Part shown: piece after piece, positions 41,961 to 64,000 of the stretch | Layout: every line of letters begins with the position of its first letter | Position numbering within the stretch: position 1 is the stretch's first letter | Assembly: GCA_025354385.1 (NCBI GenBank) | Contig: JANXMZ010000044.1 | Coordinates: 1,069 to 65,068 of the forward strand | Reading direction: 5' to 3' | Source: Bacteroidota bacterium | Lineage (GTDB): Bacteria; Bacteroidota; Bacteroidia; NS11-12g; UBA955 | Length of the DNA stretch: 64,000 nucleotides | The notes under the pieces: model-generated | Told to the model about the DNA's origin: nothing | What the model saw: only the letters and a program-made list of their open reading frames with translations | Database searches by the model: none | Program-made: the position numbers and the translations under genes

Positions 41961-44072
41961 ATGAGAGAAAAAATAAATTTTATTAAACAACAAACCCAGC
42001 TATCAGAACGCGCTATACAAGCAGTTGTTAAGTTGAACGAAGAAGGTGCCACTGTGGCTTTTATAGCCCGTTATAGAAAAGATGCAACCGAGAATATGGA
42101 TGAGCTAGGGGTGTTGGATGTTATAAAATATGAAACGTATTACAATGATTTAATCAAACGCAAAGAATTTATTTTAGAAAGCATACTGGGGCAAGATAAA
42201 TTAACGCCTGAGTTGAAACAAAAAATAGAAACTTGTATGGACAAAGATGTGTTGGAAGATTTGTATTTGCCCTACAAGCAACGCAAGAAAACCAGAGCTG
42301 ATATTGCCCGTGAAAAAGGATTGGAGCCCTTAGCAAAAATAATTTTAGCGCAAAGAGAATCGGATGTTGAATATGCGGCACAGCGCTATGTAAATGCAAA
42401 AGTGAATGATGTTGATGAAGCCATACAAGGTGCTATGGACATTGTAGCGCAATGGATTGCAGATGATGCCGATACCCGCAGTCTATTGAGACAGCGATTC
42501 GAACAACATGCTTTTATAGAAACCAAAGTGGGCAAGGGTAAAGAAAAAGATGGCGAGAAATACAAAGACTATTTTAAATATTCTGAGAAAGCGGCCAATG
42601 CGCCATCACATCGTATCATGGCCATTATGCGAGCGACTGATGAAGGGATACTGAAATTGAATATAACGCCCGATGAGGATAGAACTTTAGAAGCCATCGA
42701 TTATAAATGGATCAAGCGCGGCAGTGCCACTGAGAATTATATGTTGGATATTACGAAGGATGCCTACAAAAGATTGTTGCAACCTTCGATAGAAAATGAA
42801 TTAAAACAAAAATTATTCGAAAAAGCAGAGGCTGATGCCATCAAAATATTTGCCGATAATTTGCAGCAATTGTTGTTGTCGTCTCCCTATGGTAACAAAC
42901 GCATTCTCTCTATCGATCCAGGCATTCGCACAGGTTGTAAAACGGTTTGTTTAAATGAGAATGGCAATTTGTTACACCACACTGTTTTATTTTTTAATAC
43001 CAACGATGAGCGCAATAGATCGGCCAAGCAGATACAAGAGTTGATGCACACATATAAACTAGAAGGCATAGCAGTGGGCAATGGCACAGCGGGTAGAGAT
43101 ACCGCAGATTTTATAAAAGGCTTAGGGTTAGATGCACCAGTTTTTTTAGTAAACGAAGATGGAGCTTCCGTCTATTCAGTTTCGGAAATTGCACGCAAAG
43201 AATTTCCCGACCATGATGTAACAGTGAAGGGCGCGGTGAGCATAGGCAGAAGGTTGATGGATCCATTAGCAGAGTTGGTGAAGATAGATGCCAAGAGCAT
43301 GGGTGTTGGGCAATATCAGCACGATGTGAACCAAACAAAATTGAAACAAGCCTTGGACGAAACGGTAGAAATTTGTGTGAACCGAGTGGGCGTAAATTTA
43401 AACACTGCAGGCGAAGAACTGTTGAAACATGTATCGGGATTGGGGCCGGTACTCGCTAAAAATATCATAGAACACCGAAACAAAAATGGGGAGTTTAAAT
43501 CGCGCGATGAATTAAAGAAAGTGGTGCGTTTGGGCGATAAAGCATTCGAACAATCGGCAGGGTTTTTAAGAGTGCCTGCGGGTAAAAATCCTTTGGATAG
43601 GAGTGGCGTTCACCCCGAGCAATATGCCAATGTGAAAAAGATGGCGGCTATGGCAGGCGTGGTGGTAGATGATTTAATTGGCAATGCGAACTTGATTAAG
43701 AAAGTTTCAGAGTTAACAGATATAAAAACACAGATGGGTGAATTTACCTTTAAAGATATTTTAAAAGAGTTAGAAAAGCCAGGCTTAGATCCAAGGGTGC
43801 CATTGAGTGAAGATGTATTTGATGCGGGTATAAGAAAAATGGAAGATTTGCAAGTGGGCATGACCATTAAAGGCATAGTGGCGAACATCACCAACTTCGG
43901 TGCTTTCATTGATATAGGCATTAAGCAGAGTGGTTTATTGCACATTTCCGAAATGGCCAATCATTTTATTAAGAGTCCTTCCGAAGTGGTAAAGCTAAAT
44001 CAACAACTCACTTTGAAAGTAAAAGAAATTGATTTCGAAAGGCAGCGCATTGCATTGACTTTGAAGTTTTAA
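41961..44072 (+). CDS. tex: Transcription accessory protein Tex (YqgF/HhH/S1 domains)
   Basis: 703 aa; N-terminal FIARYRK and a C-terminal S1 domain. Confidence 0.9.
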
Positions 44073-44087
44073 ATTAAATAAAAAAAG

Positions 44088-44558
44088 GTTGACAAAAAAC
44101 ATACCAATTGGTATGTTTTTAGAATTGTTTCAATATTTCCATTTTCTATTTTTATGTTTCACCTCTACCCCTTAGGGGTAGTATTTCTGTAACCGCGGGT
44201 CGCAGACCCTCGTCAAATATCAAATCGTGTCAATTTGTTTGGCGATTTTTTTGCTGTTCCCTCGCAAAAAAAATGACAAACACAATAAGCTAGAATACGA
44301 TAAATGAAATTGACTTTGAAAGAGCCTATAGCTTTGACTTTAAAATTTAAGTGTTTTGTTACTGTTTGAAAAAACAGACCATTCGGTATGTTATTAGAAT
44401 TGTTTCAATATTTCCATTTTCTATTTTTATATTTCACCTCTACCCCTTAGGGGTAGCATATCTGTCACCGCGGGTCGTAGACCCTCGTCAAATATCAAAT
44501 CCCGCCAAATAGTTTCGAGATTTTTTTGCGGTTCCCTTGCAAAAAAATGACAAACAAT
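44088..44558. repeat. Two tandem copies of a ~190-bp unit (about 88% identical) with conserved GC hairpins
   Basis: Copy A spans 44088-44283 and copy B 44369-44558. Both contain CTACCCCTTAGGGGTAG and GGGTCG(C/T)AGACCC. Confidence 0.75.
44094..44120. terminator. Bidirectional intrinsic terminator after tex
   Basis: AAAAAACATACCAATTGGTATGTTTTT is a perfect palindrome flanked by A and T runs. Confidence 0.6.
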
Positions 44559-45034
44559 TAGTTTTCATCAGGTGGTAATGGCATGTCTGGCGGGTATACT
44601 ATCTCCTTTCGCACTGGAACATTGTAATAGCCATTGTTATCGAAGGCTTTTTTTCTTAATTCCTTGTACTCGTATAGGCCACACTCAAACACTTCAACCA
44701 CAATAGTCTCGAATTTTTCTTTAGGCACATATCGAATACCACAATCGAAATAAAGTCGCAAAGTATCATGATTAAAAGAATAGACAAATGGGTCCAATCC
44801 CCTCACCGCATCAATGGTGTCCAAACTTTTAGTTAGTCTCTTTTTGTTTTTAGTAATAGTTGATAATTGATGGTCGCCAGTAACGCCCCAGTTAATTGTA
44901 TTGATATAGATTTTTTCACCCTTACTAGATACCAGTTCTCTTGAAATGACATCTTCAGTAATTTTAGGAAAGCATCCTGAAATAAGTGTAATTAGGATTG
45001 TTGCACTTATGCTGCAAAGAATTTTTAATCTCAT
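44558..45034 (-). CDS. Hypothetical lipoprotein
   Basis: Lipobox LISGC; 158 aa. Confidence 0.5.
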   Translation of the reverse strand: MRLKILCSISATILITLISGCFPKITEDVISRELVSSKGEKIYINTINWGVTGDHQLSTITKNKKRLTKSLDTIDAVRGLDPFVYSFNHDTLRLYFDCGIRYVPKEKFETIVVEVFECGLYEYKELRKKAFDNNGYYNVPVRKEIVYPPDMPLPPDEN

Positions 45035-45036
45035 AA

Positions 45037-45678
45037 TTAATGCGTCTTAAAATACTGCATATACTTCAAGCCCCTCGCACAGTAATCGGCATCGTACGTG
45101 CGCGGTCCGCCAATAGCAGGATGTGGCATGCCTGTGTTATGGATGTGAAAAGCATCCTTGTATTTCTCTTTTTTAAGGTATGGCCCATAGGTCATTTCAA
45201 TCCATTTGGTGCCATAGTAAACAGCATCTTCACCACGAATATCTTTCACCTTAATATCTAATAACAAGCACTTGTAACCCATGAGTTGAAAAGGTCCCCA
45301 ACTGCTGGCCAAATTCTTAAGTGCGTCATCATTAGCGTCTACCAACATGGCTTGCGTTACATGTTCATAATTTTCGAGGGTGCCGAACTTTACCATTTTT
45401 AATTTATCGTAAACATGAGGTTCTAATCGTTGGTCGAATACTTTTCTTCCGCCACATTCCAACATGCATAATGCCTTTAAATAATCAGGAGATAAATCAA
45501 ATAGTGCAGCGCAACTATCAATGTCCGACCCGTAATTTTTGCTTACCATTTCTAGGCCGCTTTTATGGTCTTCTACGTTGATATTTTTCTTTTGAAGGTA
45601 AGGAATTAAATATACCAAAACTGCTGTGGCGGTTGCTAAAATAAGAAACAGTATAAATAGGCCTTTCAGGTTTTTCAT
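45037..45678 (-). CDS. Hypothetical membrane-anchored protein, possibly lysozyme/N-acetylmuramidase-like
   Basis: N-terminal TM helix. The GPFQLMGY motif is reminiscent of muramidase/transglycosylase families, but the assignment is weak. Confidence 0.35.
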   Translation of the reverse strand: MKNLKGLFILFLILATATAVLVYLIPYLQKKNINVEDHKSGLEMVSKNYGSDIDSCAALFDLSPDYLKALCMLECGGRKVFDQRLEPHVYDKLKMVKFGTLENYEHVTQAMLVDANDDALKNLASSWGPFQLMGYKCLLLDIKVKDIRGEDAVYYGTKWIEMTYGPYLKKEKYKDAFHIHNTGMPHPAIGGPRTYDADYCARGLKYMQYFKTH

Positions 45679-45753: not shown

Positions 45754-47121
45754 TTAATTTTTATTTAATTCTATCTTCTCATCACCTTTTTGATAAGGCA
45801 TATAAGTAATAATAAACTGCAACATCTCATCGGTGGTTCGCATACTAGCACCTCCATGGTCATTGCGCTCACCTATTAATCGTGGAGGAGTGAAGGGATT
45901 GTTAGGATTGTTTTTGGTATTGTCAAATTCAGATTCTACCCGAATAATACTGCCTTTTGGAATCTTAATAGGGTTGGTAAATGTATAAAAATATTGCCAT
46001 CTGAATTGCCATTTTGGAATGCTAATCAAACGAATCGTATCGCCATTGGGTTTCAATGCATAGGCTTTAAATTGAGTGCCTATTAAATGCATGTGTGGGT
46101 TAATTGTAAGGATAGAAATATCGTTGTAAATGGTGATTTCTGTGGTGTGTTTTGAAATGGTATTAGGTTGAATTTGCAACGGGGGAACAATAGGTGCAAT
46201 ACCGTTAGTGCCTAGCATAATCTCGTAGGTTGGTCGCTCTGGCTTTTTATTAGCAAAATAGACATACAGTTTAGAACTATCCATCATTTGTTTTCTGCTT
46301 GGACCATAATGTATATCATTGGCTACAAAAGTGCCATTTACACTCAGTAAAAAGCCGCCAATACCTTCGGGATATTTTACACCAAAACTGCTTGGTAAAT
46401 AATTAAACGCTGAATGCACACGCTCTGGTTTATTGCCATTGGCATTTAGTAATTTCAAAGCATCAAATTCAGATTCAAAATTAGGGTCGTTGGTTTCTAT
46501 TATTCGTTTGCCATCAAAAGGATTTGTGTGTCCATCATACAACAATAAATGGCCGTTAGCATGGTGCACAATGTTTGGCTGTCCTGCCATAAATTCAACT
46601 GCTTTTACATATTGCGGCTTTTTTAATTGGTAAGGAATTTTAATGATATAAAAACGGTCTGAATTATCATTTAAAATTTGAACAGGTGGTACTGGTATAA
46701 TTAAATCGGGCGTTCCCAAAACAGAAATTTTTGCATTATATACGGGTGGTTTTAAATCGGTGGTATCTCCTGGTGCTTTACCATTCTTAAACCAATCTTG
46801 TATTAATTGAATCTCATTTTCATTCAGTGTTTTTTCATTGATAAAATGCGTGTAGTTTTTGTCAGCAGGCCATGGTGGCATGTAATGGGTACGCGTTACA
46901 AAAGCAATCATTTTAGCGCGCTGTGCAACATCGCTGTAGGTTAAAAATGTGAAAGGCGCACCTCCATTTTGACTATGGCAAGGGGTACAATTTTTGTAAA
47001 TAATGGGGGCAATGTTTTTAGAAAAAGTAATGTCTTTTTTTGAACATGAATAAAAACCAAAGCTAATCATGCTCAATAAAGCAACCCACAGGTTCGGTTT
47101 CGCTAATCTCAATGGTTTCAT
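45754..47121 (-). CDS. Lipoprotein with N-terminal haem-binding CxxCH (cytochrome c-like) domain and C-terminal His/Met-rich domain
   Basis: Lipobox FYSC, CTPCH at aa 45-49 followed by HYMPPW, and HH / HxH / Met clusters downstream. Confidence 0.55.
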   Translation of the reverse strand: MKPLRLAKPNLWVALLSMISFGFYSCSKKDITFSKNIAPIIYKNCTPCHSQNGGAPFTFLTYSDVAQRAKMIAFVTRTHYMPPWPADKNYTHFINEKTLNENEIQLIQDWFKNGKAPGDTTDLKPPVYNAKISVLGTPDLIIPVPPVQILNDNSDRFYIIKIPYQLKKPQYVKAVEFMAGQPNIVHHANGHLLLYDGHTNPFDGKRIIETNDPNFESEFDALKLLNANGNKPERVHSAFNYLPSSFGVKYPEGIGGFLLSVNGTFVANDIHYGPSRKQMMDSSKLYVYFANKKPERPTYEIMLGTNGIAPIVPPLQIQPNTISKHTTEITIYNDISILTINPHMHLIGTQFKAYALKPNGDTIRLISIPKWQFRWQYFYTFTNPIKIPKGSIIRVESEFDNTKNNPNNPFTPPRLIGERNDHGGASMRTTDEMLQFIITYMPYQKGDEKIELNKN

Positions 47122-47623
47122 GATTAAGCAACGAAATTAAGGCATTCTCAATATAATTAATACTCGCATTTGGTTTAAATGAACCAAGACTCTCAAAACG
47201 GTCATCAATTTTGCCTGAATACAATTGTTTAAAGTCCTTAGAAAGGATAATTACTTGAGGTGTAACTTTTGCTCCAAAAGATTTGGCATAAAAACCTTGT
47301 AGATCCATGATAACGTTTTTATAAGGAATAGAATCGTAGTCACAAAAATCCAGAATGTTTTTTTCAGTTATTGGTCCGGAAAAGACATAATAGAAATTAA
47401 ATTTATCATTAAATTTTGTAAATATTGTTTTTAAACTTCCTTGATATTTTTGACAAATAGGGCATTCGGTATTCAGAAAATAGATGACTGCCGTTTTGTT
47501 GAACACAATGTCATTCGCAAAATATTTAGAGTGAATTATTGGTGGTTTTTTAGGCAGCTGTTGACAACTTAAAAGAAATAAAAAACACCAAAATAAATAC
47601 TTCCCTTGTTTCATTTTTATCAA
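47063..47623 (-). CDS. Thioredoxin-fold redoxin lipoprotein (CPIC active site)
   Basis: Lipobox LLSC, TECPICQKY; 186 aa. Confidence 0.6.
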   Translation of the reverse strand: MIKMKQGKYLFWCFLFLLSCQQLPKKPPIIHSKYFANDIVFNKTAVIYFLNTECPICQKYQGSLKTIFTKFNDKFNFYYVFSGPITEKNILDFCDYDSIPYKNVIMDLQGFYAKSFGAKVTPQVIILSKDFKQLYSGKIDDRFESLGSFKPNASINYIENALISLLNHETIEISETEPVGCFIEHD

Positions 47624-47700
47624 GGCGAAGATAAGTAATCACAGGGAATTTAAAAGAACGATTAAACCTTTTGGCACGATGTTAGTCTTATAAGAGAAAA

Positions 47701-48261
47701 TTGCAAAACACCGAAGCACTAAACGACCATGAATTGATGTTGGCATTTGTTAAAGAACAAAAGCCTGAATATTTATTTAGGGTTATTATGGGTCGATATA
47801 AACAGAAAGTTTATTGGCAAATAAGACGCATCCTTATTAGCCATGAAGATGCCGACGAAGTTTGCCAAATTGTATTTATTAAATTGTGGCAGAATGCAGG
47901 CTCTTTTCAATTCAATAGTGCTTTGAGCAGTTTTATATACCGCATGGCTTATAACGAAAGCATGACTTTTCTAAAACAAAAAAGCAGGTTTCAATCCTTT
48001 GATGAAATGTTGGATGCCGATGGACATTATGAGCAAATGATAGAACAAGGGGCTGGAATGGATGGCGACCAAATAGCAGCGGAATTACAGAAGGCATTAT
48101 TAACTTTGCCCGAAAAACAAAGATTGGTATTTAATTATAAGTATTTTGAAGAATTGCAATACAATGAAATTAGCGAAATAACAGGCACCTCAATTGGTGC
48201 GCTCAAGAGTAATTATCATTTTGCAGTAGAAAAAATTAAAAAATATTTTAACCTCGATTAA
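47701..48261 (+). CDS. ECF-subfamily RNA polymerase sigma-70 factor
   Basis: Sigma region 2 (FIKLWQNAGSF...YRMAYNESMTFLK) and region 4 (QYNEISEITGTSIGALKS). Confidence 0.8.
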   Translation: MQNTEALNDHELMLAFVKEQKPEYLFRVIMGRYKQKVYWQIRRILISHEDADEVCQIVFIKLWQNAGSFQFNSALSSFIYRMAYNESMTFLKQKSRFQSFDEMLDADGHYEQMIEQGAGMDGDQIAAELQKALLTLPEKQRLVFNYKYFEELQYNEISEITGTSIGALKSNYHFAVEKIKKYFNLD

Positions 48262-48289
48262 ACCTTTACACATTTAAATAGTCATACCA

Positions 48290-48742
48290 ATGGAAGGCAT
48301 GGAAAAAGAATCTTTACACGAACAATTTAAACACAATGGATTCAAAGTACCCGAAAATTACTTTGAAGCGTTGGAGGAACGTGTAATAAAACATCTTCCG
48401 AAAGAAGATAAGCGAAGGGCTTTGCCAAAGTGGAAGCATTGGAGCATTGCTGCTTCTCTCTTCATTGCTGCGGGTTTAGGTGCCTTTTATTTTATGAGTA
48501 GGAAGGATGAGGTAATAGATATTGCAACGGCCAGCATTAGTACTTCAGAATTGGAAGAGTATGAAAATAATGTTGAAGTTAGTGATGATGAATTAGCAGA
48601 TATTGTTTCACTGCAATTGATAGACAGTTTATACCAAACCAGGGTGATTTCTGCAAAAAGTAAGAGTCGTGAGCATCAAAAGGAAATCGAAAGTATTGAA
48701 GAAGAATACTCGCCTTTGGACGATGTAGAAATAGAAATTTAA
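48290..48742 (+). CDS. Putative anti-sigma factor (single-pass membrane protein)
   Basis: 150 aa with a central TM helix, immediately downstream of the ECF sigma gene. Confidence 0.5.
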   Translation: MEGMEKESLHEQFKHNGFKVPENYFEALEERVIKHLPKEDKRRALPKWKHWSIAASLFIAAGLGAFYFMSRKDEVIDIATASISTSELEEYENNVEVSDDELADIVSLQLIDSLYQTRVISAKSKSREHQKEIESIEEEYSPLDDVEIEI

Positions 48743-48761
48743 ACAACCAATAACCAAATAT

Positions 48762-49259
48762 ATGAATAAGCAAATAATAACATTCGCCATTGGATTATGC
48801 CTTTTAATGGGCGCTCAAGGGGCATGCGCACAAGGCCGTGGGGGCACTAAGAACAAGGTAGAAAAGGAAGCTAAAATAAATGAATTGAGAGTGGCTTATT
48901 TTAACGATAAATTAGCGCTTACCGATGCAGAACAAAAAGCATTTTGGCCTTTGTACGATGAGTATAAAAGCAAAGACAAAGCACTGCGCGATTCATTCCA
49001 AAGAAAATACAAAAGAAATGAAGTAGTATTTATGGATGATAAAAAATCAGAAGAATATCTAAATGCTTTACTCAAATTAAAAGACGATGAGAATGCTTTG
49101 TACAGAGAGTATATAGGTAAATTTAAAAAGGTACTACCTGTCAAAAAAGTAGCCATGTTGCCAACTTTGGAAAAGGAATTTAAAAAGGAAATCTTACAAA
49201 AGATGATGCAACATAAGAGGGATGGCAATCAAAATCCACCGCCACCATCAGATGAATAA
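48762..49259 (+). CDS. Periplasmic Spy/CpxP-like stress protein
   Basis: Signal peptide plus LTDAEQKAFWPLYDEY-type motifs and a charged C-terminal tail. Confidence 0.5.
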   Translation: MNKQIITFAIGLCLLMGAQGACAQGRGGTKNKVEKEAKINELRVAYFNDKLALTDAEQKAFWPLYDEYKSKDKALRDSFQRKYKRNEVVFMDDKKSEEYLNALLKLKDDENALYREYIGKFKKVLPVKKVAMLPTLEKEFKKEILQKMMQHKRDGNQNPPPPSDE

Positions 49260-49337: not shown

Positions 49338-52001
49338 TTATTCTACTGTGATTAATTGAGAATATAAGCCATTAACCAGCACAAGATACAAACCAGGTCG
49401 CGCATTTATTAATTCCGCTTCCATATTTAACCGTCCTAAACCGGTATCCATGTTCCAAATACTTTTGCCATTCAAGTCAAATATTTGCATTTGCTCAATG
49501 CCATTAGAAAACGTCACTGTAAAACAACCCTTGTTAGGATTAGGATATACATTAAGTGAATTTGGTTTTGACTGAAAAGTAGTTTGAAAAGATGAATTTT
49601 TAGGTTCGGTAATAAAATGCCAAGCGCTAGAATCAATGCCATTAAAAGCGGTATTCATAGAGTCTGTAATTAAGTCGGGCTTTAGCCAAACAGATATGCG
49701 TTTATTGTGACCAAAATCGCTGTCAATATCGAAGGTTATATTACTTCCAGTTATTGTAGTTCTTGGTCCATTCAATTCAATAGAATCTTTGAATACATTG
49801 TTCTCGAATACCAATAGGCTTCCTTTTTTACCCAGTGAAATGTTGCGGTCGAAATCTATGCTTAAGCTACTATTTACCAAAATGTTTTTGGCGTTGTTGG
49901 CTGGTGTTAATTTAATGGCTGTTGGCAAACTAATGGTTTTAAAATACCAATCACCAAATACTACAGGATTAATAGCAATGCCATTCTCGTTGATCAAACA
50001 AGCATCTAACTCTATTACTATCGTCGCATTGTATGCAAAATTAGAGGAAGGATGTATGGTGATAATATTTCCACTGATGCCAACATTGCTATCCGTTACA
50101 GAAAATTTCTCTTTGAATAAACTGTTCTCCCAAATGGTAATTTGTCCGCTACCCGCTTTGATGTTTTCAGAAAATTCAAGTTGTGGTGAAAAATTAACCG
50201 CCACATTTTTACTGAGAGTAACTGGAATATAAGTGGTAATTTTAGGTTGAGAAACAGAGGTGGAAAAATACCAAAGTGACGAGTCTTGAACTTTACTTAA
50301 ATTATCTGATGAATCTCTGAAACCTTGGGCAAATATTTTAACCGCTATCCTTGAATTGATGTTGAAGGACTGGTGCTGAATAGTAACACTGTCATTGTGA
50401 ATTTTAACATTTACGCTAGGAATTAAAATGGTTTGGAACAGGGCATTGTTTTGGTAAATTTCTATCTTGCCAGATTTGGCTATAACAGCTTCATCAAAAA
50501 TAATTTTAAGTGGGTTGACTAGATTGACTGATACATCATTTTTTGCTGGTACCAGTGTTTTTATCTTTGGAGGATTTGTTTCGTAGGTACACGAATAAAT
50601 GTAAGAATTCTTTTCAATGGTGCCGTATGAAGTAAGGTTTTTATTCTTAAACGCTGCGTAGGTGTTGGGGTAAAAAACACAACGGAAAACGGAGTTGTTA
50701 TTTGGAGCATCTCCATCCTTTTGTCTGTCCGCTCCATTAGAGGGGTTTTTGTATTCCCAAACAGTCTTTTTATTAGCGTTTATTTCAAAAAAACGACCCT
50801 GAACACCACTGCAAATTAAAGTGTTACCATTCGGTAACCTTTGGGTACCTGAAATAATTTGTGAGTAAAAACGGGTTGGAATAGAATCCTTATAAATCCA
50901 ACTTTGTTTTGAAGGTCCAAAGGGAAGCGTGGTATTATAAGAACCATTTGGATAAATTGGCGTTGAAATGATGTCTATAGAAGAGTATGCAGTATCTCGC
51001 TCCCACCCATTGTTAAATAAAATTATACTGCCAGAGTCTTTAAATCCACCAGGAATCCAAGTGGCATTGTGTTGTCTAAATAGCTTTCTGTCTTGAGGAG
51101 TTCCTTGGTTGTAAGCTTGAGGATTGCCCCAACGGTATAAAAAATCGCCTCCTTTTCCATATTTACCACCACTATGAGATTTGGCTTGGGCCTTTGAAGT
51201 GCCGTGGTCTATCACCCATATTTCTGAAATATTATGACAACTCATTACTATTTGATCCAAGCTCGGATTATAGTCGATACCATTCATGTGAATCCAATCG
51301 TGGGTCTTTAAATTAAGTGCGTAATTAATATTCAATAAACCAGGGTTTAAACTGACATTGCCAAAATTAGGTTTAGTAGAATCTTGGTCTTGCACTATAT
51401 GATCAAATAAATTCCATTGCCATACAATATCCGCGCTATCTTTACCTCTAGGTTTCAATTCTATTAATCGTTCGCCCCATAAGTCATTTTGACCATTGCC
51501 AAAGTTCACCGCATTTCTGCCCAAGGCCATAGCGCTTGTTTTTGAAATTGAATGCCAAGTCATTACCATAACATTGCCATTAGGCATTGGATGTATATCG
51601 TGGTGTTGACAAAGTGAATCTGTGAAAATTACATAACTCCAAACTACTTTTCCATCCCAATCTAATTCTTCTATAACACCACCTCTTCCACCAGCACCTC
51701 CAAAGGTAGTGTCGGAATAAGTCCCAGTTTTTAATAAATGTCCATTGGCTAATAAATAGACAGATAAGCCAGGTGTATATTGGCTATACCATGTATGAAC
51801 CTTCTGCCCACATTTATTAATTAGGAAAGTGGTATCTGAACCTAAAGGTGTAAATAAAACATATCCGTCTTCCATCCCTCCACTTAAGTGTTTGGTAAGA
51901 CCAACAGTTTTCTGTTGAGCAAATACTTCATTGCTAAAGATGCTTAAAAATATTAAAAGAATGAAGATGTTTAATATAGGAAGATTCTTTGCGAAGCTCA
52001 T
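49338..52001 (-). CDS. Arylsulfotransferase (ASST)-like beta-propeller protein with Ig-like repeats and T9SS type A sorting domain
   Basis: 887 aa. Signal peptide, motifs HHDIHPMPNGN and DWIHMNGIDYN, and C-terminal VYPNPNKG...GLYLV. Confidence 0.65.
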   Translation of the reverse strand: MSFAKNLPILNIFILLIFLSIFSNEVFAQQKTVGLTKHLSGGMEDGYVLFTPLGSDTTFLINKCGQKVHTWYSQYTPGLSVYLLANGHLLKTGTYSDTTFGGAGGRGGVIEELDWDGKVVWSYVIFTDSLCQHHDIHPMPNGNVMVMTWHSISKTSAMALGRNAVNFGNGQNDLWGERLIELKPRGKDSADIVWQWNLFDHIVQDQDSTKPNFGNVSLNPGLLNINYALNLKTHDWIHMNGIDYNPSLDQIVMSCHNISEIWVIDHGTSKAQAKSHSGGKYGKGGDFLYRWGNPQAYNQGTPQDRKLFRQHNATWIPGGFKDSGSIILFNNGWERDTAYSSIDIISTPIYPNGSYNTTLPFGPSKQSWIYKDSIPTRFYSQIISGTQRLPNGNTLICSGVQGRFFEINANKKTVWEYKNPSNGADRQKDGDAPNNNSVFRCVFYPNTYAAFKNKNLTSYGTIEKNSYIYSCTYETNPPKIKTLVPAKNDVSVNLVNPLKIIFDEAVIAKSGKIEIYQNNALFQTILIPSVNVKIHNDSVTIQHQSFNINSRIAVKIFAQGFRDSSDNLSKVQDSSLWYFSTSVSQPKITTYIPVTLSKNVAVNFSPQLEFSENIKAGSGQITIWENSLFKEKFSVTDSNVGISGNIITIHPSSNFAYNATIVIELDACLINENGIAINPVVFGDWYFKTISLPTAIKLTPANNAKNILVNSSLSIDFDRNISLGKKGSLLVFENNVFKDSIELNGPRTTITGSNITFDIDSDFGHNKRISVWLKPDLITDSMNTAFNGIDSSAWHFITEPKNSSFQTTFQSKPNSLNVYPNPNKGCFTVTFSNGIEQMQIFDLNGKSIWNMDTGLGRLNMEAELINARPGLYLVLVNGLYSQLITVE

Positions 52002-61411: not shown

Positions 61412-62047
61412 TTACTTTAATTTTAGATTTAATTTCTTCAAAAGATCTAAGGCAAGTGGGTTCTCTTTAATAATTTCATCAAGTTGCTCTTTTTGCGTAT
61501 AGGCCTTGGTTTGTTGAATAACAGTATTATCTTCGGTAATCACTAGGGTAATTTCTCTATTTCCAAAATAATCTCTTAGGAATCTTTGCCACTCAATTTT
61601 TATGGGTTCAATCAAATTAATATTTGATTTATGCATCGCCACATTAACATCGTAAATATTGATTTTCAAATTGAACATTTTAACAAGTGCACTTGTAGAG
61701 GGTGGCACTGTTGCGGCAAAGGCATGGATAGCGGCTTTCAAATTTTGATCGTTGAATTCCACTTTTGTAGTTGGTTCTGATACTATATTCGAGTTTTGTA
61801 CGGAGGCTTCTTTAGTGGCTTCTATTTTCTCTAACACATTGGCATCCGACTGTTCAATAATTTCTGCAATGCCGATTTGAACAGCAGGAGGGGGTACAAC
61901 CAATTGTCCTTTTAATGGAATTTTAGGAAGGCTAAAATTTGAATCTGCTAATGGAATAATTTTGGCTACTATTGGTTCTTTAACAGCAGCAGTATTGTTC
62001 TTGTTTTGAGCAATCTTTTTTTCTATATACTCATCACTTTTTTTTTT
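61412..62047 (-). CDS. dnaX: DNA polymerase III tau-specific C-terminal region (domains IV-V), in the -1 frame relative to upstream dnaX
   Basis: The frame is open from the A10 run (62047-62038) down to the stop at 61412. A TGA lies immediately upstream of the A-run in this frame. Confidence 0.6.
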   Translation of the reverse strand, partial: KKKSDEYIEKKIAQNKNNTAAVKEPIVAKIIPLADSNFSLPKIPLKGQLVVPPPAVQIGIAEIIEQSDANVLEKIEATKEASVQNSNIVSEPTTKVEFNDQNLKAAIHAFAATVPPSTSALVKMFNLKINIYDVNVAMHKSNINLIEPIKIEWQRFLRDYFGNREITLVITEDNTVIQQTKAYTQKEQLDEIIKENPLALDLLKKLNLKLK

Positions 62048-63159
62048 AATTCATCCAGCGTAGTGGCTGAATTTAACATGTTTTTAATGTGACAGAGTTT
62101 CAAAAGGGCTAACTCCACATGCAAGCGTTGATTGCGACTATTCTTGTATTCGAGGTCGAATTGATTATTGATATTGAGTGCATTTAAAAGAAATGTGATA
62201 TTGGTGTTTTTACTTTGTTCGTTGTATTTTGCTTTGTGAATTTCGCCTACATCTAACAAATGCGCGGTAGCACTGTCTTTACACACCATCAAGTTTCTGA
62301 AATGTTCATTGAGGCCATTCAAGAACAATTGCCCATCAAACCCCCTTTCTAATATCTGGTCAAAATAATTGAGCACATCGCTCACATTTTGGTTCACAAT
62401 GGCATCCGTAACTTTAAAATAATAATCCTTATCTAATAAGTTCAGATTGTCTACCACTTTTTGATAAGTAATATCGCCATTGCAAAAACTTACCATCTGG
62501 TCGAACATGGAGAGGGCATCGCGCAAGCCTCCATCAGCTTTTTCTGCAATTACATGAAGGGCTTCGTCTTCGGCTTTAATATTCTCCTTAACAACAATAG
62601 TTTTCAAATGGGCCACCATGTCTTTTACTTGAATACGTTTGAAATTAAATATTTGACAACGCGATAAAATGGTAGGTAATACCTTGTGTTTTTCTGTGGT
62701 TGCTAATATGAAAATAGCGTATCTAGGAGGCTCTTCTAATGTTTTCAAGAACGCATTGAAAGCCGCAGAACTCAACATGTGTACCTCATCTATGATATAA
62801 ATTTTATAGGTACCAACTTGAGGTGGTATTCGCACCTGGTCGTTTAGGTTTCTTATATCATCTACAGAGTTATTACTGGCGGCATCGAGCTCAAAAATAT
62901 TAAAAGCATAATCCTGTTCTGGTCCGTCATTGTCTTTTTGATTAATAACCTTGGCAAGTATTCGAGCACAAGTGGTTTTGCCCACCCCCCTTGGACCAGT
63001 AAATAAAAATGCTTGCGCTAAATGGTTGCTATTAATTTCATTCAGTAGAGTATCAGTAATGTGTTTCTGCCCAACAACATCATCAAATATTGAAGGTCTA
63101 TATTTTCGGGCAGATACAATAAAATTTTCCACAGATATAACAACTAAAAAGGAATGCAA
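62023..63159 (-). CDS. dnaX: DNA polymerase III subunit gamma/tau, in-frame gamma-length product (domains I-III)
   Basis: ENFIVSARKYRP...GPRGVGKTTCARI (Walker A). The frame ends VMSI* four codons after the A10 run. The real start may be the GTG at 63132. Confidence 0.85.
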   Translation of the reverse strand: MHSFLVVISVENFIVSARKYRPSIFDDVVGQKHITDTLLNEINSNHLAQAFLFTGPRGVGKTTCARILAKVINQKDNDGPEQDYAFNIFELDAASNNSVDDIRNLNDQVRIPPQVGTYKIYIIDEVHMLSSAAFNAFLKTLEEPPRYAIFILATTEKHKVLPTILSRCQIFNFKRIQVKDMVAHLKTIVVKENIKAEDEALHVIAEKADGGLRDALSMFDQMVSFCNGDITYQKVVDNLNLLDKDYYFKVTDAIVNQNVSDVLNYFDQILERGFDGQLFLNGLNEHFRNLMVCKDSATAHLLDVGEIHKAKYNEQSKNTNITFLLNALNINNQFDLEYKNSRNQRLHVELALLKLCHIKNMLNSATTLDELKKKVMSI

Positions 63160-63387: not shown

Positions 63388-64000
63388 ATGAATAATCAAG
63401 AAATTTTATCAGGGGTTATTGCCAATGCTGCCAATGCTTTTATTAACTTAAGTACAGATGAACTGGTGCAAAAAGCAATTGAAAGAAACGAAGGTGTAAT
63501 TACAGACAATGGTGCCTTAGCTGCAGATACTGGCGAATTCACTGGACGTTCTCCAAAAGATAAGTTTACCGTTTGTGATGAAAAAACTGAAAACACAGTT
63601 TGGTGGGGCGATGTTAATTTCAAATTTGAACCATCAAAATTCGACGCCTTATTAACAAAAGTGTTGAATCACTACCAAGGCAAGGATTTATTTGTAAGAG
63701 ATGCCTATGCCTGTGCCGATCCTCAATATCAACTAAATATTAAAGTTGTTACCGAAACGGCTTACCAGAATTTATTTGCTAAAAATTTATTCTTACGTCC
63801 GGAAAATAACAACGAAACACCAACAGAATGGTTGATTCTTGCTGCTCCTTCTTTTAGCGCGATAGCTGCAGAAGATGGAACCCGTCAGCACAATTTCTCT
63901 ATCATTAATTTTACAAGAAAAATTATTTTAATAGGTGGTTCAGGTTATACTGGGGAAATTAAAAAAGGAATATTCACTGTTCTTAATTATATTTTACCAC
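63388..64000 (+). CDS. pckA: Phosphoenolpyruvate carboxykinase (ATP), 5' part
   Basis: MNNQEILSGV...TGRSPKDKF. Open to the window end, so it is absent from the ORF track. Confidence 0.85.
   Translation, partial: MNNQEILSGVIANAANAFINLSTDELVQKAIERNEGVITDNGALAADTGEFTGRSPKDKFTVCDEKTENTVWWGDVNFKFEPSKFDALLTKVLNHYQGKDLFVRDAYACADPQYQLNIKVVTETAYQNLFAKNLFLRPENNNETPTEWLILAAPSFSAIAAEDGTRQHNFSIINFTRKIILIGGSGYTGEIKKGIFTVLNYILP

What the first reader, a model, noticed from the sequence alone, without database searches (positions are those of the whole stretch)
45754..49259. Divergent ECF sigma / anti-sigma / Spy-like module next to an operon for a CPxC redoxin lipoprotein and a CxxCH haem plus His/Met-rich (copper-monooxygenase-like) lipoprotein
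**The proteins.** The 455-aa protein has a lipobox, a single CxxCH haem-binding motif followed by HYMPPW (a planctomycete-type cytochrome c-like module), and then HH (aa 186-187), HxH (343-345) and downstream Met residues. Their spacing recalls the CuH/CuM sites of type II copper monooxygenases (PHM/DBM).

**Arrangement.** It is co-transcribed with, and overlaps by 59 nt, a thioredoxin-fold CPIC lipoprotein. The pair is divergently transcribed, 77 bp away, from an ECF sigma, anti-sigma and Spy/CpxP-like trio.

**Inference.** This looks like an envelope redox or metal-handling module under extracytoplasmic sigma control. The proposed function is an inference.
Basis: inference. Interest (0 to 1): 0.55.

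Follow-up and report, generated by a model that had tools for sequence, protein, structure and literature searches.

The report
Bacterial haem-linked PHM-type copper monooxygenase pair
A Bacteroidota lipoprotein joins a c-type haem domain to the two-copper fold of the animal enzymes that make amidated peptide hormones and noradrenaline; it works with a thioredoxin-like partner, belongs to a very large bacterial family I found no study of, and is probably not controlled by the neighbouring ECF sigma factor.

Summary
All five ORFs, the motifs, the 59-nt overlap and the 77-bp divergent gap are real.

- **455-aa protein:** the predicted structure matches only PHM and dopamine β-hydroxylase at significant level (Foldseek E 1e-10 to 1e-8). 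A profile alignment to rat PHM puts all six copper ligands on residues conserved at ≥97% across 389 relatives: H186/H187/H271 = CuH and H343/H345/M433 = CuM. CxxCH and MPPW are about 100% conserved.
- **Substrate:** PHM's peptide-carboxylate binders (R240, Y318) are absent, so the substrate is probably not a glycine-extended peptide.
- **CPIC partner:** it belongs to the PRX_like1/PrxL family, which has an invariant Cys-Pro and a distant C-terminal Gly-Cys. It is adjacent in 50 of 75 informative loci and fused to the enzyme in more than 2,000 proteins from several phyla.
- **Family size:** about 16,500 clusters at 50% identity, named only by domain. I found no literature on it.
- **ECF link (weak):** the trio is adjacent in only 12 of 80 loci. 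Conserved ECF-type promoters precede the sigma and anti-sigma genes, none faces the operon, and the operon has a housekeeping-type −7 box.
- **Labels that failed testing:** "Spy/CpxP-like" and "planctomycete-type cytochrome".

Best model: electrons pass from the PrxL dithiol to the haem, then to CuH and CuM, where O2 is activated.

The parts
45754..47121 (-). 455-aa lipoprotein with three parts: signal peptide and lipobox (Cys26), an N-terminal mono-haem c domain (about aa 30-120), and a two-domain PHM/DBM-type β-sandwich copper domain (about aa 135-445).
   Evidence: ORF and an independent gene call. Pfam Cu2_monoox_C scores 23.9 bits against a cutoff of 23. AF2 model has pLDDT 81. The top 30 Foldseek hits are PHM or DBH, E 7.6e-11 to 6e-8. 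hhalign to PHM gives E 6e-5.
46975..46989 (-). Haem c attachment motif C45-T-P-C48-H49.
   Evidence: Invariant in A1. Present in 100% of aligned residues among 389 relatives.
46870..46881 (-). M81-P-P-W84. M81 is the candidate distal (sixth) haem ligand.
   Evidence: About 100% conserved. The ligand role is inferred.
46561..46566 (-). H186-H187, two of the three CuH ligands, equivalent to PHM H107/H108.
   Evidence: hhalign aligns VHH with VHH. At least 97% conserved.
46309..46311 (-). H271, the third CuH ligand, equivalent to PHM H172 (HYG motif).
46087..46095 (-). H343-M-H345, the CuM histidines, equivalent to PHM H242/H244 (HxHxxG).
   Evidence: 147/148 and 118/119 conserved.
45823..45831 (-). 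D431-E432-M433. M433 is the CuM methionine, equivalent to PHM M314 in its DEM motif.
   Evidence: 128/130 and 79/79. The nearby M427 is not conserved.
47063..47623 (-). PRX_like1/PrxL-type thioredoxin-fold lipoprotein. It is 186 aa from the TTG start, or 183 aa from ATG 47614. It overlaps the 455-aa gene by 59 nt.
   Evidence: Profile A2 matches 2ywi (7e-26), 2cvb (5e-24) and 3u5r (5e-18). Adjacent on the same strand in 50/75 loci and present in 63/80. Fused to the enzyme in P0122, P0260, P0228 and P0234 and in more than 2,000 further proteins.
47453..47464 (-). C54-P55-I-C57. The Cys54-Pro55 pair is invariant; the second Cys is replaceable (Ser, Ala or Val in relatives and in the fusions).
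47081..47086 (-). G180-C181, the invariant C-terminal Gly-Cys and the likely redox partner of Cys54.
   Evidence: Invariant in A2. Also present as GCxIK in 2ywi and 2cvb. The pairing is inferred from Caulobacter PrxL, where two distant Cys form a disulfide.
47626..47633 (-). TATCTTCG, a one-mismatch version of the Bacteroidota housekeeping −7 box (TAnnTTTG), 12-19 nt upstream of the Trx ATG. It is the candidate promoter of the Trx/monooxygenase operon.
   Evidence: An exact TAnnTTTG lies at the equivalent place in L001, L003, L004, L007, L009, L014 and L006. Its function is inferred.
47663..47687 (+). ECF-type promoter P1 (TAAACC-N16-GTC), 13 nt upstream of the conserved TTG start of the sigma gene. 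It is presumably autoregulatory.
   Evidence: Conserved in 12 of 12 trio loci despite a variable spacer sequence. The strict motif occurs only 3 times in both strands of the 64-kb window.
47701..48261 (+). ECF sigma factor (186 aa).
   Evidence: Sigma70_r2 at 45.5 bits and r4_2 at 48.6 bits; TIGR02937 at 89.4 bits against a cutoff of 42.9.
48259..48283 (+). Second ECF-type promoter P2 (TAAACC-N16-GTC). It starts on the sigma stop codon and precedes the anti-sigma and helical-protein genes.
   Evidence: Conserved at the same place in 11 of 11 loci that include this junction.
48290..48742 (+). 150-aa single-pass membrane protein, the putative anti-sigma factor. It has a conserved cytoplasmic GFKVPxxYFExFE motif, one TM helix and an acidic periplasmic tail.
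   Evidence: Alignment A4. No Pfam or NCBIfam domain. The role is inferred from position.
48762..49259 (+). 165-aa secreted all-helical protein of a small uncharacterised family. It is not demonstrably Spy/CpxP. Its weak best structural resemblance is to CnrX, but it lacks conserved metal ligands.
45037..45678 (-). 213-aa membrane-anchored protein with weak lysozyme/muramidase-like similarity. It is a probable third gene of the operon in this clade.
   Evidence: It directly follows the haem-copper gene in 12 loci, including loci without the ECF trio. The Muramidase match is sub-threshold and found in 5 of 12 orthologues.

Best explanation
The core unit is a two-gene periplasmic redox enzyme system. 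In other phyla the same unit is a single fused protein.

**Components.** The 455-aa lipoprotein is a non-coupled binuclear copper monooxygenase of the PHM/DBM type. An electron-entry domain, a mono-haem c cytochrome, is built onto its N-terminus. The upstream, translationally overlapping gene encodes a PRX_like1/PrxL-type thioredoxin-fold lipoprotein whose invariant Cys54 and Cys181 form a redox-active dithiol.

**Proposed electron path.** Cytoplasmic thioredoxin passes electrons to a DsbD/CcdA/ScsB-type membrane transporter, then to the PrxL-like dithiol, then to the haem c, then to CuH (H186, H187, H271). From there they reach CuM (H343, H345, M433), where O2 is activated and a C-H bond of a so far unknown periplasmic substrate is hydroxylated. 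In this scheme the haem and the thiol protein replace the ascorbate used by the animal enzymes. The substrate is unlikely to be a glycine-extended peptide.

**The neighbouring trio.** The ECF sigma, anti-sigma and helical-protein genes form a separate, self-regulating module. It lies next to the pair only in one Bacteroidota clade.

**Shown.** The fold, the complete conserved ligand sets, the haem motif, the export signals, and the pair linkage and fusion.

**Inferred.** Actual haem and copper occupancy, monooxygenase chemistry, the direction of electron flow, and the role of the partner.
For: **PHM/DBM fold**
- The top 30 PDB matches are PHM or DBH with probability 1.0 over about 330 columns. 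The next matches are about 1,000-fold weaker, and they are jelly-roll capsid proteins.
- Pfam Cu2_monoox_C is at or above threshold in the window protein and in many relatives. The N-terminal Cu2_monooxygen domain is above threshold in P0214.

**Copper ligands**
- hhalign to rat PHM, whose sequence was verified as 100% identical to 4e4z_A, places all six ligands on family-invariant residues.
- Those residues are ≥97% conserved across close relatives, distant representatives and fused forms.

**Haem**
- CxxCH and MPPW are about 100% conserved.
- Both proteins have Sec/lipoprotein signals, which is compatible with periplasmic haem c attachment.

**Partner**
- Present in 63 of 80 loci and adjacent on the same strand in 50 of 75.
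- Natural fusions have the order PrxL-haem-Cu, with at least 2,052 hits in Armatimonadota, Planctomycetia, Deltaproteobacteria and Cytophagales.
- Its profile matches PRX_like1 structures over the full length, including the GCxI(K/E) motif. The PRX_like1 motifs published in PMC3514251 match 2ywi.
- Caulobacter PrxL has two distant Cys that form a disulfide. [quoted passage not shown]

**Stoichiometry (established PHM mechanism)**
- One turnover needs two electrons, which is what one dithiol supplies.
Against: - No biochemical data exist. Haem and copper binding are inferred from sequence and a predicted fold.
- Sequence similarity to PHM is remote: the hhalign probability is only 65%, and a profile search of PDB sequences found nothing.
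- Electron transfer from a thiol to a haem c is unusual, since it couples a two-electron donor to a one-electron acceptor.
- 12 of 75 informative loci show no PrxL-like gene within 6 kb.
- No CcdA/DsbD-type gene lies next to either the fused or the unfused forms.
- The haem could equally be reduced by respiratory c-type cytochromes.
Confidence: 0.45

Rival explanations
1. The enzyme is the same (a haem c plus PHM-type dicopper monooxygenase), but the haem is reduced by the respiratory or periplasmic c-type cytochrome pool. The PrxL-like lipoprotein is then a maturation factor. It would either keep the apo-protein's CxxCH cysteines reduced for haem attachment (ResA/CcmG logic) or deliver or reduce copper for the two sites (Sco/TlpA logic).
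For: - ResA, StoA and other envelope thiol-disulfide reductases are the next-best structural relatives of the partner, at E about 1e-10.
- Thioredoxin-fold proteins commonly act in cytochrome c and cuproenzyme maturation (established knowledge of ResA/CcmG and Sco/TlpA).
- About a sixth of the loci lack an adjacent partner, which fits a helper better than an obligatory subunit.
Against: - The second Cys of the CxxC motif, essential for ResA/CcmG-type dithiol reduction, is not conserved. It is Ser, Ala or Val in many partners and in the fusions.
- No Sco-type CxxxC...His copper site is present.
- A permanent 1:1 fusion in more than 2,000 proteins across phyla is more typical of a catalytic electron-transfer module than of an assembly factor.
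- The partner matches PRX_like1 far better than ResA (E 1e-26 against 1e-10).
Confidence: 0.25
2. The system is a thiol oxidase or O2-reducing (detoxifying) system rather than a substrate hydroxylase. Electrons would flow from client thiols to the PrxL Cys pair, then to the haem c, then to the coppers and finally to O2. This is analogous to QSOX, in which a thioredoxin domain is fused to a sulfhydryl oxidase. The outcome would be disulfide formation or removal of O2 or peroxide in the envelope.
For: - The domain order thioredoxin-fold, haem, then Cu in the fusions mirrors QSOX-type relay architecture (established knowledge).
- The positions equivalent to PHM's substrate-binding residues are not conserved across the family. 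That is expected if no specific small substrate is bound.
Against: - The CuM His2Met site and the whole PHM catalytic core are conserved at ≥97%. This suggests retention of PHM-type O2 activation for C-H chemistry.
- Subfamily-specific conservation of the pocket residues (N341, Q435 and I437 are invariant within the close clade) suggests defined, diversified substrates.
- Caulobacter PrxL is kept reduced in vivo by a reductive pathway.
Confidence: 0.12
3. The pair is an envelope-stress or metal-handling module whose transcription is driven by the divergent ECF sigma factor, with the anti-sigma and a Spy-like chaperone as the sensing and output parts.
For: - The divergent arrangement is conserved in 12 loci of the closest relatives.
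- The sigma gene's ECF promoter and the operon's −7 box lie back to back, so their activities could influence one another.
Against: - The trio is absent from 68 of 80 related loci, including relatives of 57-64% identity (L006, L011-13, L015).
- Both conserved ECF-type motifs point away from the operon, and none faces it.
- The operon has a housekeeping-type −7 box.
- The Spy/CpxP assignment failed.
- The copper ligands correspond to catalytic sites, not to metal-trafficking motifs.
Confidence: 0.1
4. The protein is a catalytically inert relic. It keeps a PHM-like double β-sandwich that serves as a binding or structural module (as in the related PNGase F and carbohydrate-binding jelly rolls), attached to an ordinary electron-transfer cytochrome c.
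For: - PHM shares its clan and double jelly-roll fold with non-redox proteins (PMC8812541).
- The Pfam score of the window protein is only marginal.
Against: All six metal ligands are conserved at ≥97% over about 16,000 sequence clusters and several architectures. That is not expected without selection for metal binding.
Confidence: 0.04

Closest known systems
Peptidylglycine α-hydroxylating monooxygenase (PHM, catalytic core of PAM; PDB 1PHM, 3MLL, 4E4Z)
   Same: - Two-domain β-sandwich (double jelly-roll) fold; it is the top structural match.
- CuH His3 and CuM His2Met ligand sets lie in the same order and within the same local motifs: VHH, HYG, HxHxxG and DEM.
   Different: - This protein is bacterial and a lipoprotein, with an N-terminal c-type haem domain.
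- It has none of PHM's disulfides. The only conserved Cys residues are the lipobox Cys and the CxxCH pair.
- The carboxylate-binding residues R240 and Y318 are replaced by N341 and I437.
- Sequence identity is about 13%.
- It has a dedicated thioredoxin-fold partner or fusion, and ascorbate is unlikely to be the reductant.
Dopamine β-hydroxylase / tyramine β-monooxygenase / MOXD1 (PDB 4ZEL)
   Same: - The same catalytic fold and ligands, with Foldseek E 2.9e-9.
- These enzymes also carry an extra N-terminal domain (DOMON) in front of the copper core. From general knowledge, DOMON binds haem b in other proteins, so the accessory redox or ligand module sits in an analogous position.
   Different: - The accessory domain here is a covalent haem c cytochrome, not DOMON.
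- There is no dimerisation domain.
- It is prokaryotic and periplasmic.
PRX_like1 / PrxL thioredoxin-fold proteins (CDD cd02969; Caulobacter PrxL; PDB 2YWI, 2CVB, 3U5R)
   Same: - The window's partner matches these over its full length, E 7e-26 to 5e-18.
- It shares the invariant Cys-Pro, the cis-Pro and the C-terminal GCxI(K/E) motif.
- PrxL is periplasmic, has two distant redox-active Cys, is reduced by ScsB and is not a peroxidase.
   Different: - No client or function is known for PrxL.
- Here the protein is a lipoprotein, genetically coupled or fused to a haem-copper enzyme.
- The window copy additionally has a canonical second Cys (CPIC), which many relatives lack.
Haem-domain electron delivery to copper monooxygenases (cellobiose dehydrogenase cytochrome domain or CYBDOM proteins reducing LPMOs)
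   Same: It may work the same way: a haem domain passes single electrons to a mononuclear Cu site that activates O2. This comparison rests on established knowledge; see also PMC11725913, listed.
   Different: - Those systems use haem b, unrelated folds and a histidine-brace Cu site, and the redox partners are separate proteins.
- Here a haem c is fused to a PHM-type dicopper core.
CnrH/CnrY/CnrX-type three-component ECF modules (ECF sigma, small single-pass anti-sigma, periplasmic helical sensor of the CpxP/CnrX fold)
   Same: - Same gene content and layout: an ECF sigma, a 150-aa single-TM protein and a secreted helical protein.
- CnrX is the best compact structural match of the third protein, with probability 0.85 and TM 0.58.
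   Different: - The match is not significant (E 0.63).
- No conserved His, Met or Cys metal ligands are present.
- The anti-sigma candidate has no recognisable anti-sigma domain.
- The inducing signal is unknown.

Membership tests
Copper type II ascorbate-dependent monooxygenases (PHM/DBM/TBM; Pfam PF01082 + PF03712) | Two consecutive β-sandwich domains with the PHM fold | tested here: met
   AF2 model has pLDDT 81. The top 30 Foldseek PDB hits are all PHM or DBH, E 7.6e-11 to 6e-8, over about 330 aligned columns.
Copper type II ascorbate-dependent monooxygenases (PHM/DBM/TBM; Pfam PF01082 + PF03712) | CuH site with three His (PHM H107, H108, H172) | tested here: met
   H186, H187 and H271 align to them. 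They are invariant in A1 and ≥97% conserved in 389 relatives.
Copper type II ascorbate-dependent monooxygenases (PHM/DBM/TBM; Pfam PF01082 + PF03712) | CuM site with two His and one Met (PHM H242, H244, M314) | tested here: met
   H343, H345 and M433 align to them and are ≥98% conserved.
Copper type II ascorbate-dependent monooxygenases (PHM/DBM/TBM; Pfam PF01082 + PF03712) | Pfam C-terminal domain model (PF03712) at or above the gathering score | tested here: met
   23.9 bits against a cutoff of 23, which is marginal. The match is clearer in relatives, at 26.9-33.8 bits, and precomputed PF03712 hits are present in most homologues.
Copper type II ascorbate-dependent monooxygenases (PHM/DBM/TBM; Pfam PF01082 + PF03712) | Pfam N-terminal domain model (PF01082) at or above the gathering score | tested here: not met
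   No hit at E ≤ 0.1 in the window protein. Among family members only P0214 reaches it, at 34.1 bits against a cutoff of 30.
Copper type II ascorbate-dependent monooxygenases (PHM/DBM/TBM; Pfam PF01082 + PF03712) | PHM-specific binding of the peptide C-terminal carboxylate (R240, Y318, N316) | tested here: not met
   These positions align with N341, I437 and Q435. The positions vary between subfamilies.
Copper type II ascorbate-dependent monooxygenases (PHM/DBM/TBM; Pfam PF01082 + PF03712) | Binds two Cu, uses ascorbate and hydroxylates a C-H bond with O2 | not testable with these tools
   This needs metal analysis and enzymology. Ascorbate use is doubtful in a bacterial periplasm.
c-type cytochromes | CxxCH haem attachment motif in an exported protein, plus a distal ligand | tested here: met
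   C45xxC48H49 and M81 are about 100% conserved, and a lipoprotein signal is present. M81 as the ligand is inferred.
c-type cytochromes | A curated cytochrome c domain model at or above threshold | tested here: not met
   Haem_bd scores 22.3 against a cutoff of 27, and Cytochrome_CBB3 scores 15.8 against 27. A relative, P0126, reaches Cytochrome_CBB3 at 34.1 bits.
Planctomycete cytochrome c (PSCyt) modules | Match to the PSCyt Pfam models | tested here: not met
   No PSCyt family appears among the Pfam hits at E ≤ 0.1.
PRX_like1 / PrxL (cd02969) | Thioredoxin fold with a conserved Cys at the first CxxC position, lacking the peroxiredoxin catalytic triad, plus a distant second Cys | tested here: met
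   C54-P55, cis-Pro122 and G180-C181 are invariant. There are full-length matches to 2ywi, 2cvb and 3u5r. 2ywi carries the PRX_like1 motifs listed in PMC3514251. The CDD model itself could not be run.
PRX_like1 / PrxL (cd02969) | Kept reduced by a DsbD-family transporter (ScsB, DsbD or CcdA) | not testable with these tools
   This is known only for Caulobacter PrxL. No such gene is adjacent here.
ECF (group 4) sigma factors | σ2 and σ4 domains only, matching the ECF superfamily model | tested here: met
   Sigma70_r2 at 45.5 bits, r4_2 at 48.6 bits, and TIGR02937 at 89.4 bits against a cutoff of 42.9.
ECF (group 4) sigma factors | Autoregulatory promoter of the AAC...CGTC type, and a co-transcribed anti-sigma factor | tested here: inconclusive
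   The motif TAAAC(C/T)-N15-17-GTC is conserved upstream of the sigma gene in 12/12 loci and upstream of the next gene in 11/11. The downstream 150-aa TM protein has no known anti-sigma domain. Promoter activity was not tested.
Spy/CpxP (LTXXQ) periplasmic chaperones | Match to the LTXXQ model or to the Spy/CpxP sequence or fold | tested here: not met
   LTXXQ scores 15.6 bits against a cutoff of 24.3 and matches 2 of 10 orthologues. hhalign against Spy gives probability 0.16%. No Foldseek hit has E < 0.3.

The most novel reading that the evidence does not exclude
This gene pair would represent a very large bacterial branch of the PHM/DBH copper monooxygenases, about 16,000 sequence clusters, that I found no description of. 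Instead of ascorbate, it would use a built-in haem c and a PrxL-type dithiol protein fed by the DsbD/CcdA/ScsB pathway. That would wire cytoplasmic reducing power to O2-dependent C-H hydroxylation in the cell envelope or, in the T9SS-secreted forms, outside the cell. The same model would supply the missing function of PrxL and point to a bacterial origin of the animal neuropeptide and catecholamine enzymes.
Probability: 0.3. Interest if true: 0.8.

Novelty: new variant of a known kind. Interest (0 to 1): 0.62.

Why it matters
**A family treated as eukaryotic.** PHM, DBH and TBM are textbook copper enzymes studied almost only in animals. A recent structural survey describes PHM as the eukaryotic branch of its clan (PMC8812541). 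Here the same catalytic core, with every copper ligand intact, defines a very large bacterial family. It has about 16,500 clusters at 50% identity and is present in more than 580 GTDB species representatives. Public sources name it only 'cytochrome c', 'redoxin' or 'hypothetical'.

**A possible answer to the reductant question.** The fused haem c and the coupled or fused PrxL-type thiol protein suggest how such an enzyme could be reduced where there is no ascorbate.

**A candidate client for PrxL.** PrxL's redox function has been undefined since 2012, and this pairing makes the question directly testable.

**Wider uses.** The T9SS-secreted, PKD/Ig-decorated relatives suggest extracellular oxidative chemistry in Bacteroidota that may be worth screening, for example on polymers. 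The family is also an obvious outgroup for asking where the animal amidating and catecholamine enzymes came from.

Tried and rejected
**Searches that found nothing**
- Sequence searches of PDB with the protein and with its family profile found nothing. The relationship to PHM shows up only through the Pfam HMM, hhalign and fold comparison.
- Six literature searches for a bacterial haem-linked PHM-like enzyme gave nothing relevant. Searches were badly designed, because generic terms swamped them.
- Rfam over the whole window gave no hits.

- Model coordinates are not exposed, so the metal-site geometry and the haem-Cu distance could not be measured.

**Hypotheses tested and dropped**
- An ECF promoter facing the operon: none found.
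- The third ECF-motif hit at 63568(−), upstream of a dnaX-like gene: judged a chance match.
- Spy/CpxP identity of the 165-aa protein: rejected.
- CnrX-like metal sensing by that protein: no conserved His, Met or Cys.
- M427 as the CuM methionine: not conserved.

**Context analyses that gave no lead**
- Conserved functional neighbours other than the Trx-like gene turned out to be lineage-specific synteny: MutS, a histidine kinase, acyltransferases, DPP-IV, BrkB and a cytoplasmic GNAT-looking protein.
- The context of fused forms showed no conserved neighbours and no CcdA/DsbD. The contig for a T9SS-type member was too short to use.

Full report

- 455-aa protein: 45754-47121 (−)
- 186-aa thioredoxin-fold protein: 47063-47623 (−), overlapping the 455-aa gene by 59 nt
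- ECF sigma factor: 47701-48261 (+)
- 150-aa protein: 48290-48742 (+)
- 165-aa protein: 48762-49259 (+)

A public gene call on an identical contig reproduces the 455-aa gene and the 59-nt overlap. It starts the Trx-like gene at the ATG three codons downstream, giving 183 aa. The 77-bp gap is exact for the two TTG starts. The TTG start of the sigma gene is conserved in all related loci, as is the peptide sequence upstream of the caller's later ATG. The lipobox, CxxCH, HYMPPW, HH and HxH motifs are present and invariant among homologues.

**2. What the 455-aa protein is**

*Fold and family.* Pfam gives a marginal but above-threshold match to the C-terminal domain of copper type II ascorbate-dependent monooxygenases, at 23.9 bits against a cutoff of 23. 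The haem-domain matches are sub-threshold. Most homologues carry the same precomputed Pfam hit. An AlphaFold model built on 24 homologues (pLDDT 81, pTM 0.73) shows a helical N-terminal domain followed by two β-sandwich domains. In a Foldseek search of the PDB, the first 30 hits are all peptidylglycine α-hydroxylating monooxygenase (PHM) or human dopamine β-hydroxylase. Their E-values run from 7.6e-11 to 6e-8 at probability 1.0 over about 330 columns. After them the E-value jumps about a thousandfold to viral double jelly-roll capsid proteins. Those are the known distant structural relatives of PHM (PMC8812541).

*Copper ligands.* Model coordinates are not exposed, so I tested ligand equivalence by alignment. 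I then aligned it to the family profile. hhalign gave E 6e-5 over 243 columns, and every PHM copper ligand fell on an invariant family residue.

| Site | PHM ligand(s) | This protein | Shared motif |
|---|---|---|---|
| CuH | H107/H108 | H186/H187 | VHH |
| CuH | H172 | H271 | HYG |
| CuM | H242/H244 | H343/H345 | HxHxxG |
| CuM | M314 | M433 | DEM |

*Substrate site.* The PHM residues that hold the peptide's terminal carboxylate are not conserved. R240 aligns with N341 and Y318 with I437.

*Conservation across the wider family.* I checked 389 proteins: 120 close homologues, 150 cluster representatives and 119 fused forms.
- CxxCH and MPPW are about 100% conserved.
- The six copper ligands are ≥97% conserved.
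- M427 is not conserved.
- The pocket positions (341, 435, 437) differ between subfamilies.

I therefore regard the fold and the metal-site assignment as well supported. Metal occupancy and chemistry remain inferred.

**3. Size and diversity of the family**

An exhaustive profile search of 1.84 billion cluster representatives found 16,470 clusters at E ≤ 1e-3, 9,730 at ≤ 1e-10 and 2,522 at ≤ 1e-30. More than 581 GTDB species representatives encode a relative. The 80 best are all Bacteroidota MAGs. The architectures found were:
- the lipoprotein form seen in the window
- forms with T9SS sorting tails and PKD/Ig domains
- a tandem duplication of the whole unit with EF-hands
- forms with TPR tails

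Public sources name these proteins only by domain or as hypothetical. Several literature searches found no description of a bacterial haem-linked PHM-type enzyme.

**4. The partner**

*Linkage.* Clustering every neighbouring ORF in the 80 loci shows one widely conserved partner, the thioredoxin-fold protein. It is present in 63 loci and adjacent on the same strand in 50 of 75 informative loci. Other neighbours are lineage-specific.

*Conserved residues.* The partner is not a canonical CxxC protein family-wide. Cys54-Pro55, the cis-Pro, and a C-terminal Gly180-Cys181 are invariant. The second Cys of CPIC is often Ser, Ala or Val.

*Family assignment.* Its profile matches three structural-genomics proteins over the full length: 2ywi at 7e-26, 2cvb at 5e-24 and 3u5r at 5e-18. 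These scores are far better than those for ResA or StoA. 2ywi carries the PRX_like1 motifs tabulated in PMC3514251. The one studied member of this group, Caulobacter PrxL (cd02969), has these properties (PMC3322552):
- it is periplasmic
- it has two distant cysteines that form a disulfide
- it is kept reduced by the DsbD-family transporter ScsB
- it has no peroxidase activity

*Fusions.* Natural fusions with the order PrxL-like, haem c, PHM-like are abundant, with at least 2,052 hits in Armatimonadota, Planctomycetia, Deltaproteobacteria and Cytophagales. They keep Cys-Pro and Gly-Cys but not the second Cys. This Rosetta-stone evidence makes the two window genes one functional unit.

**5. The ECF module**

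*Components.* The sigma factor is a clear ECF. The 150-aa protein is a conserved single-pass membrane protein with no known anti-sigma domain. The 165-aa protein belongs to a small family in which every member is annotated as hypothetical. It fails the LTXXQ model. It shows 0.16% hhalign probability against verified Spy. It has no significant fold match, and its best compact resemblance is to the ECF-linked sensor CnrX, but it lacks conserved metal ligands.

*Promoters.* Phylogenetic footprinting reveals TAAAC(C/T)-N15-17-GTC 13 nt upstream of the sigma TTG in 12 of 12 loci. A second copy starts on the sigma stop codon in 11 of 11 loci that include that junction. The strict motif occurs only three times in both strands of the 64-kb window. 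No copy faces the Trx/monooxygenase operon. That operon has a Bacteroidota housekeeping-type −7 box (TAnnTTTG) in most trio loci and a one-mismatch version in the window.

*Distribution.* The trio is adjacent in only 12 of 80 loci and is missing from equally close relatives. I conclude that the trio is a separate, self-regulating module. Its juxtaposition with the pair is clade-specific, and direct ECF control of the pair is unlikely, though not excluded.

**6. Mechanism**

The best-supported reading is a periplasmic PHM-type dicopper monooxygenase. Its electrons enter through the fused haem c and, most likely, come from the PrxL-type dithiol, which is itself fed by a DsbD/CcdA/ScsB-type pathway. 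One dithiol supplies the two electrons that a PHM-type turnover needs.

- **Shown:** the fold, the ligand sets, the haem motif, export, and the linkage and fusion.
- **Inferred:** cofactor occupancy, hydroxylase chemistry, the direction of electron flow, and the equivalence of C54/C181 with the Caulobacter PrxL cysteines.

The rivals, with my confidence in each:
- the partner is a maturation factor and the haem is reduced by respiratory cytochromes (0.25)
- a QSOX-like thiol oxidase or O2 reductase (0.12)
- an inert structural relic (0.04)

The substrate is unknown. The only clade-specific hint is a downstream membrane-anchored protein with weak lysozyme/muramidase-like similarity. It follows the enzyme gene in 12 loci.

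**7. Comparison, novelty and verdict**

The protein meets the structural and ligand criteria of the PHM/DBM family. It does not meet the Pfam N-terminal model or the PHM substrate-binding features, and it adds a haem c domain and a thiol partner that no characterised member has. It is therefore a new variant of a known kind: a bacterial, haem- and thiol-linked PHM-type enzyme. Database domain hits already hint at it, but I found no study of it.

I score interest at 0.62. It also gives a concrete, testable client for PrxL and a possible answer to how such enzymes are reduced without ascorbate. Against that, all function is still inferred, and the ECF part of the original idea does not hold.

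Noticed in passing
window 49338-52001 (-): An 887-aa protein with an arylsulfotransferase-like β-propeller, three Big_5 Ig-like domains and a T9SS C-terminal sorting domain. It lies beside the ECF trio here and also in L001 and L016.
   Followed up: partly
window 45037-45678 (-) and 44558-45034 (-): A 213-aa membrane-anchored protein with only sub-threshold N-acetylmuramidase similarity (5 of 12 orthologues). It directly follows the haem-copper gene in 12 loci, including loci that lack the ECF trio, so it is a better-conserved operon member than the trio. It is followed by a 158-aa lipoprotein with no family match.
   Followed up: partly
window 48259-48283 (+): A second ECF-type promoter motif starts on the sigma gene's stop codon, just before the anti-sigma gene. 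It is conserved in 11 of 11 related loci. This suggests separate ECF-dependent transcription of the anti-sigma and helical-protein genes on short-leader mRNAs.
   Followed up: yes
window 63545-63568 (-): The third strict match to the ECF promoter motif (TAAACTTATCTTTTGGAGAACGTC) lies about 400 nt upstream of a dnaX-like gene (62023-63159, −). It is probably a chance match.
   Followed up: partly
L017, L020, L033-L035, L068, L079 (upstream of the match at about 6001): In another clade, two tandem PrxL-like paralogues precede the haem-copper gene, and a 373-aa cytoplasmic, GNAT-looking protein of unknown function follows it (15 loci). In L018, L030, L038 and L053 a 721-aa protein with no Pfam match sits between two PrxL-like genes.
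   Followed up: partly
P0177, P0147, P0169, P0214, P0126, P0234 (family members): Family members with T9SS sorting tails, PKD/Ig domains, EF-hands, TPR tails, or a tandem duplication of the whole haem-copper unit. Haem c proteins exported by T9SS would suggest extracellular oxidative chemistry.
   Followed up: partly
L003, L004, L007, L009 (intergenic region between the sigma and Trx-like genes): In loci where the divergent gap is only 12-32 bp, the operon's −7 box (TAnnTTTG) and the reverse complement of the sigma promoter's −10 element (GACG) overlap back to back. The two promoters could therefore interfere with each other.
   Followed up: no
window 1-64000: No Rfam family reaches its gathering score anywhere in the 64-kb window. 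A Tex-like S1-domain protein lies at 41961-44072 (+) (identified by eye from its sequence, not run against a family library).
   Followed up: no
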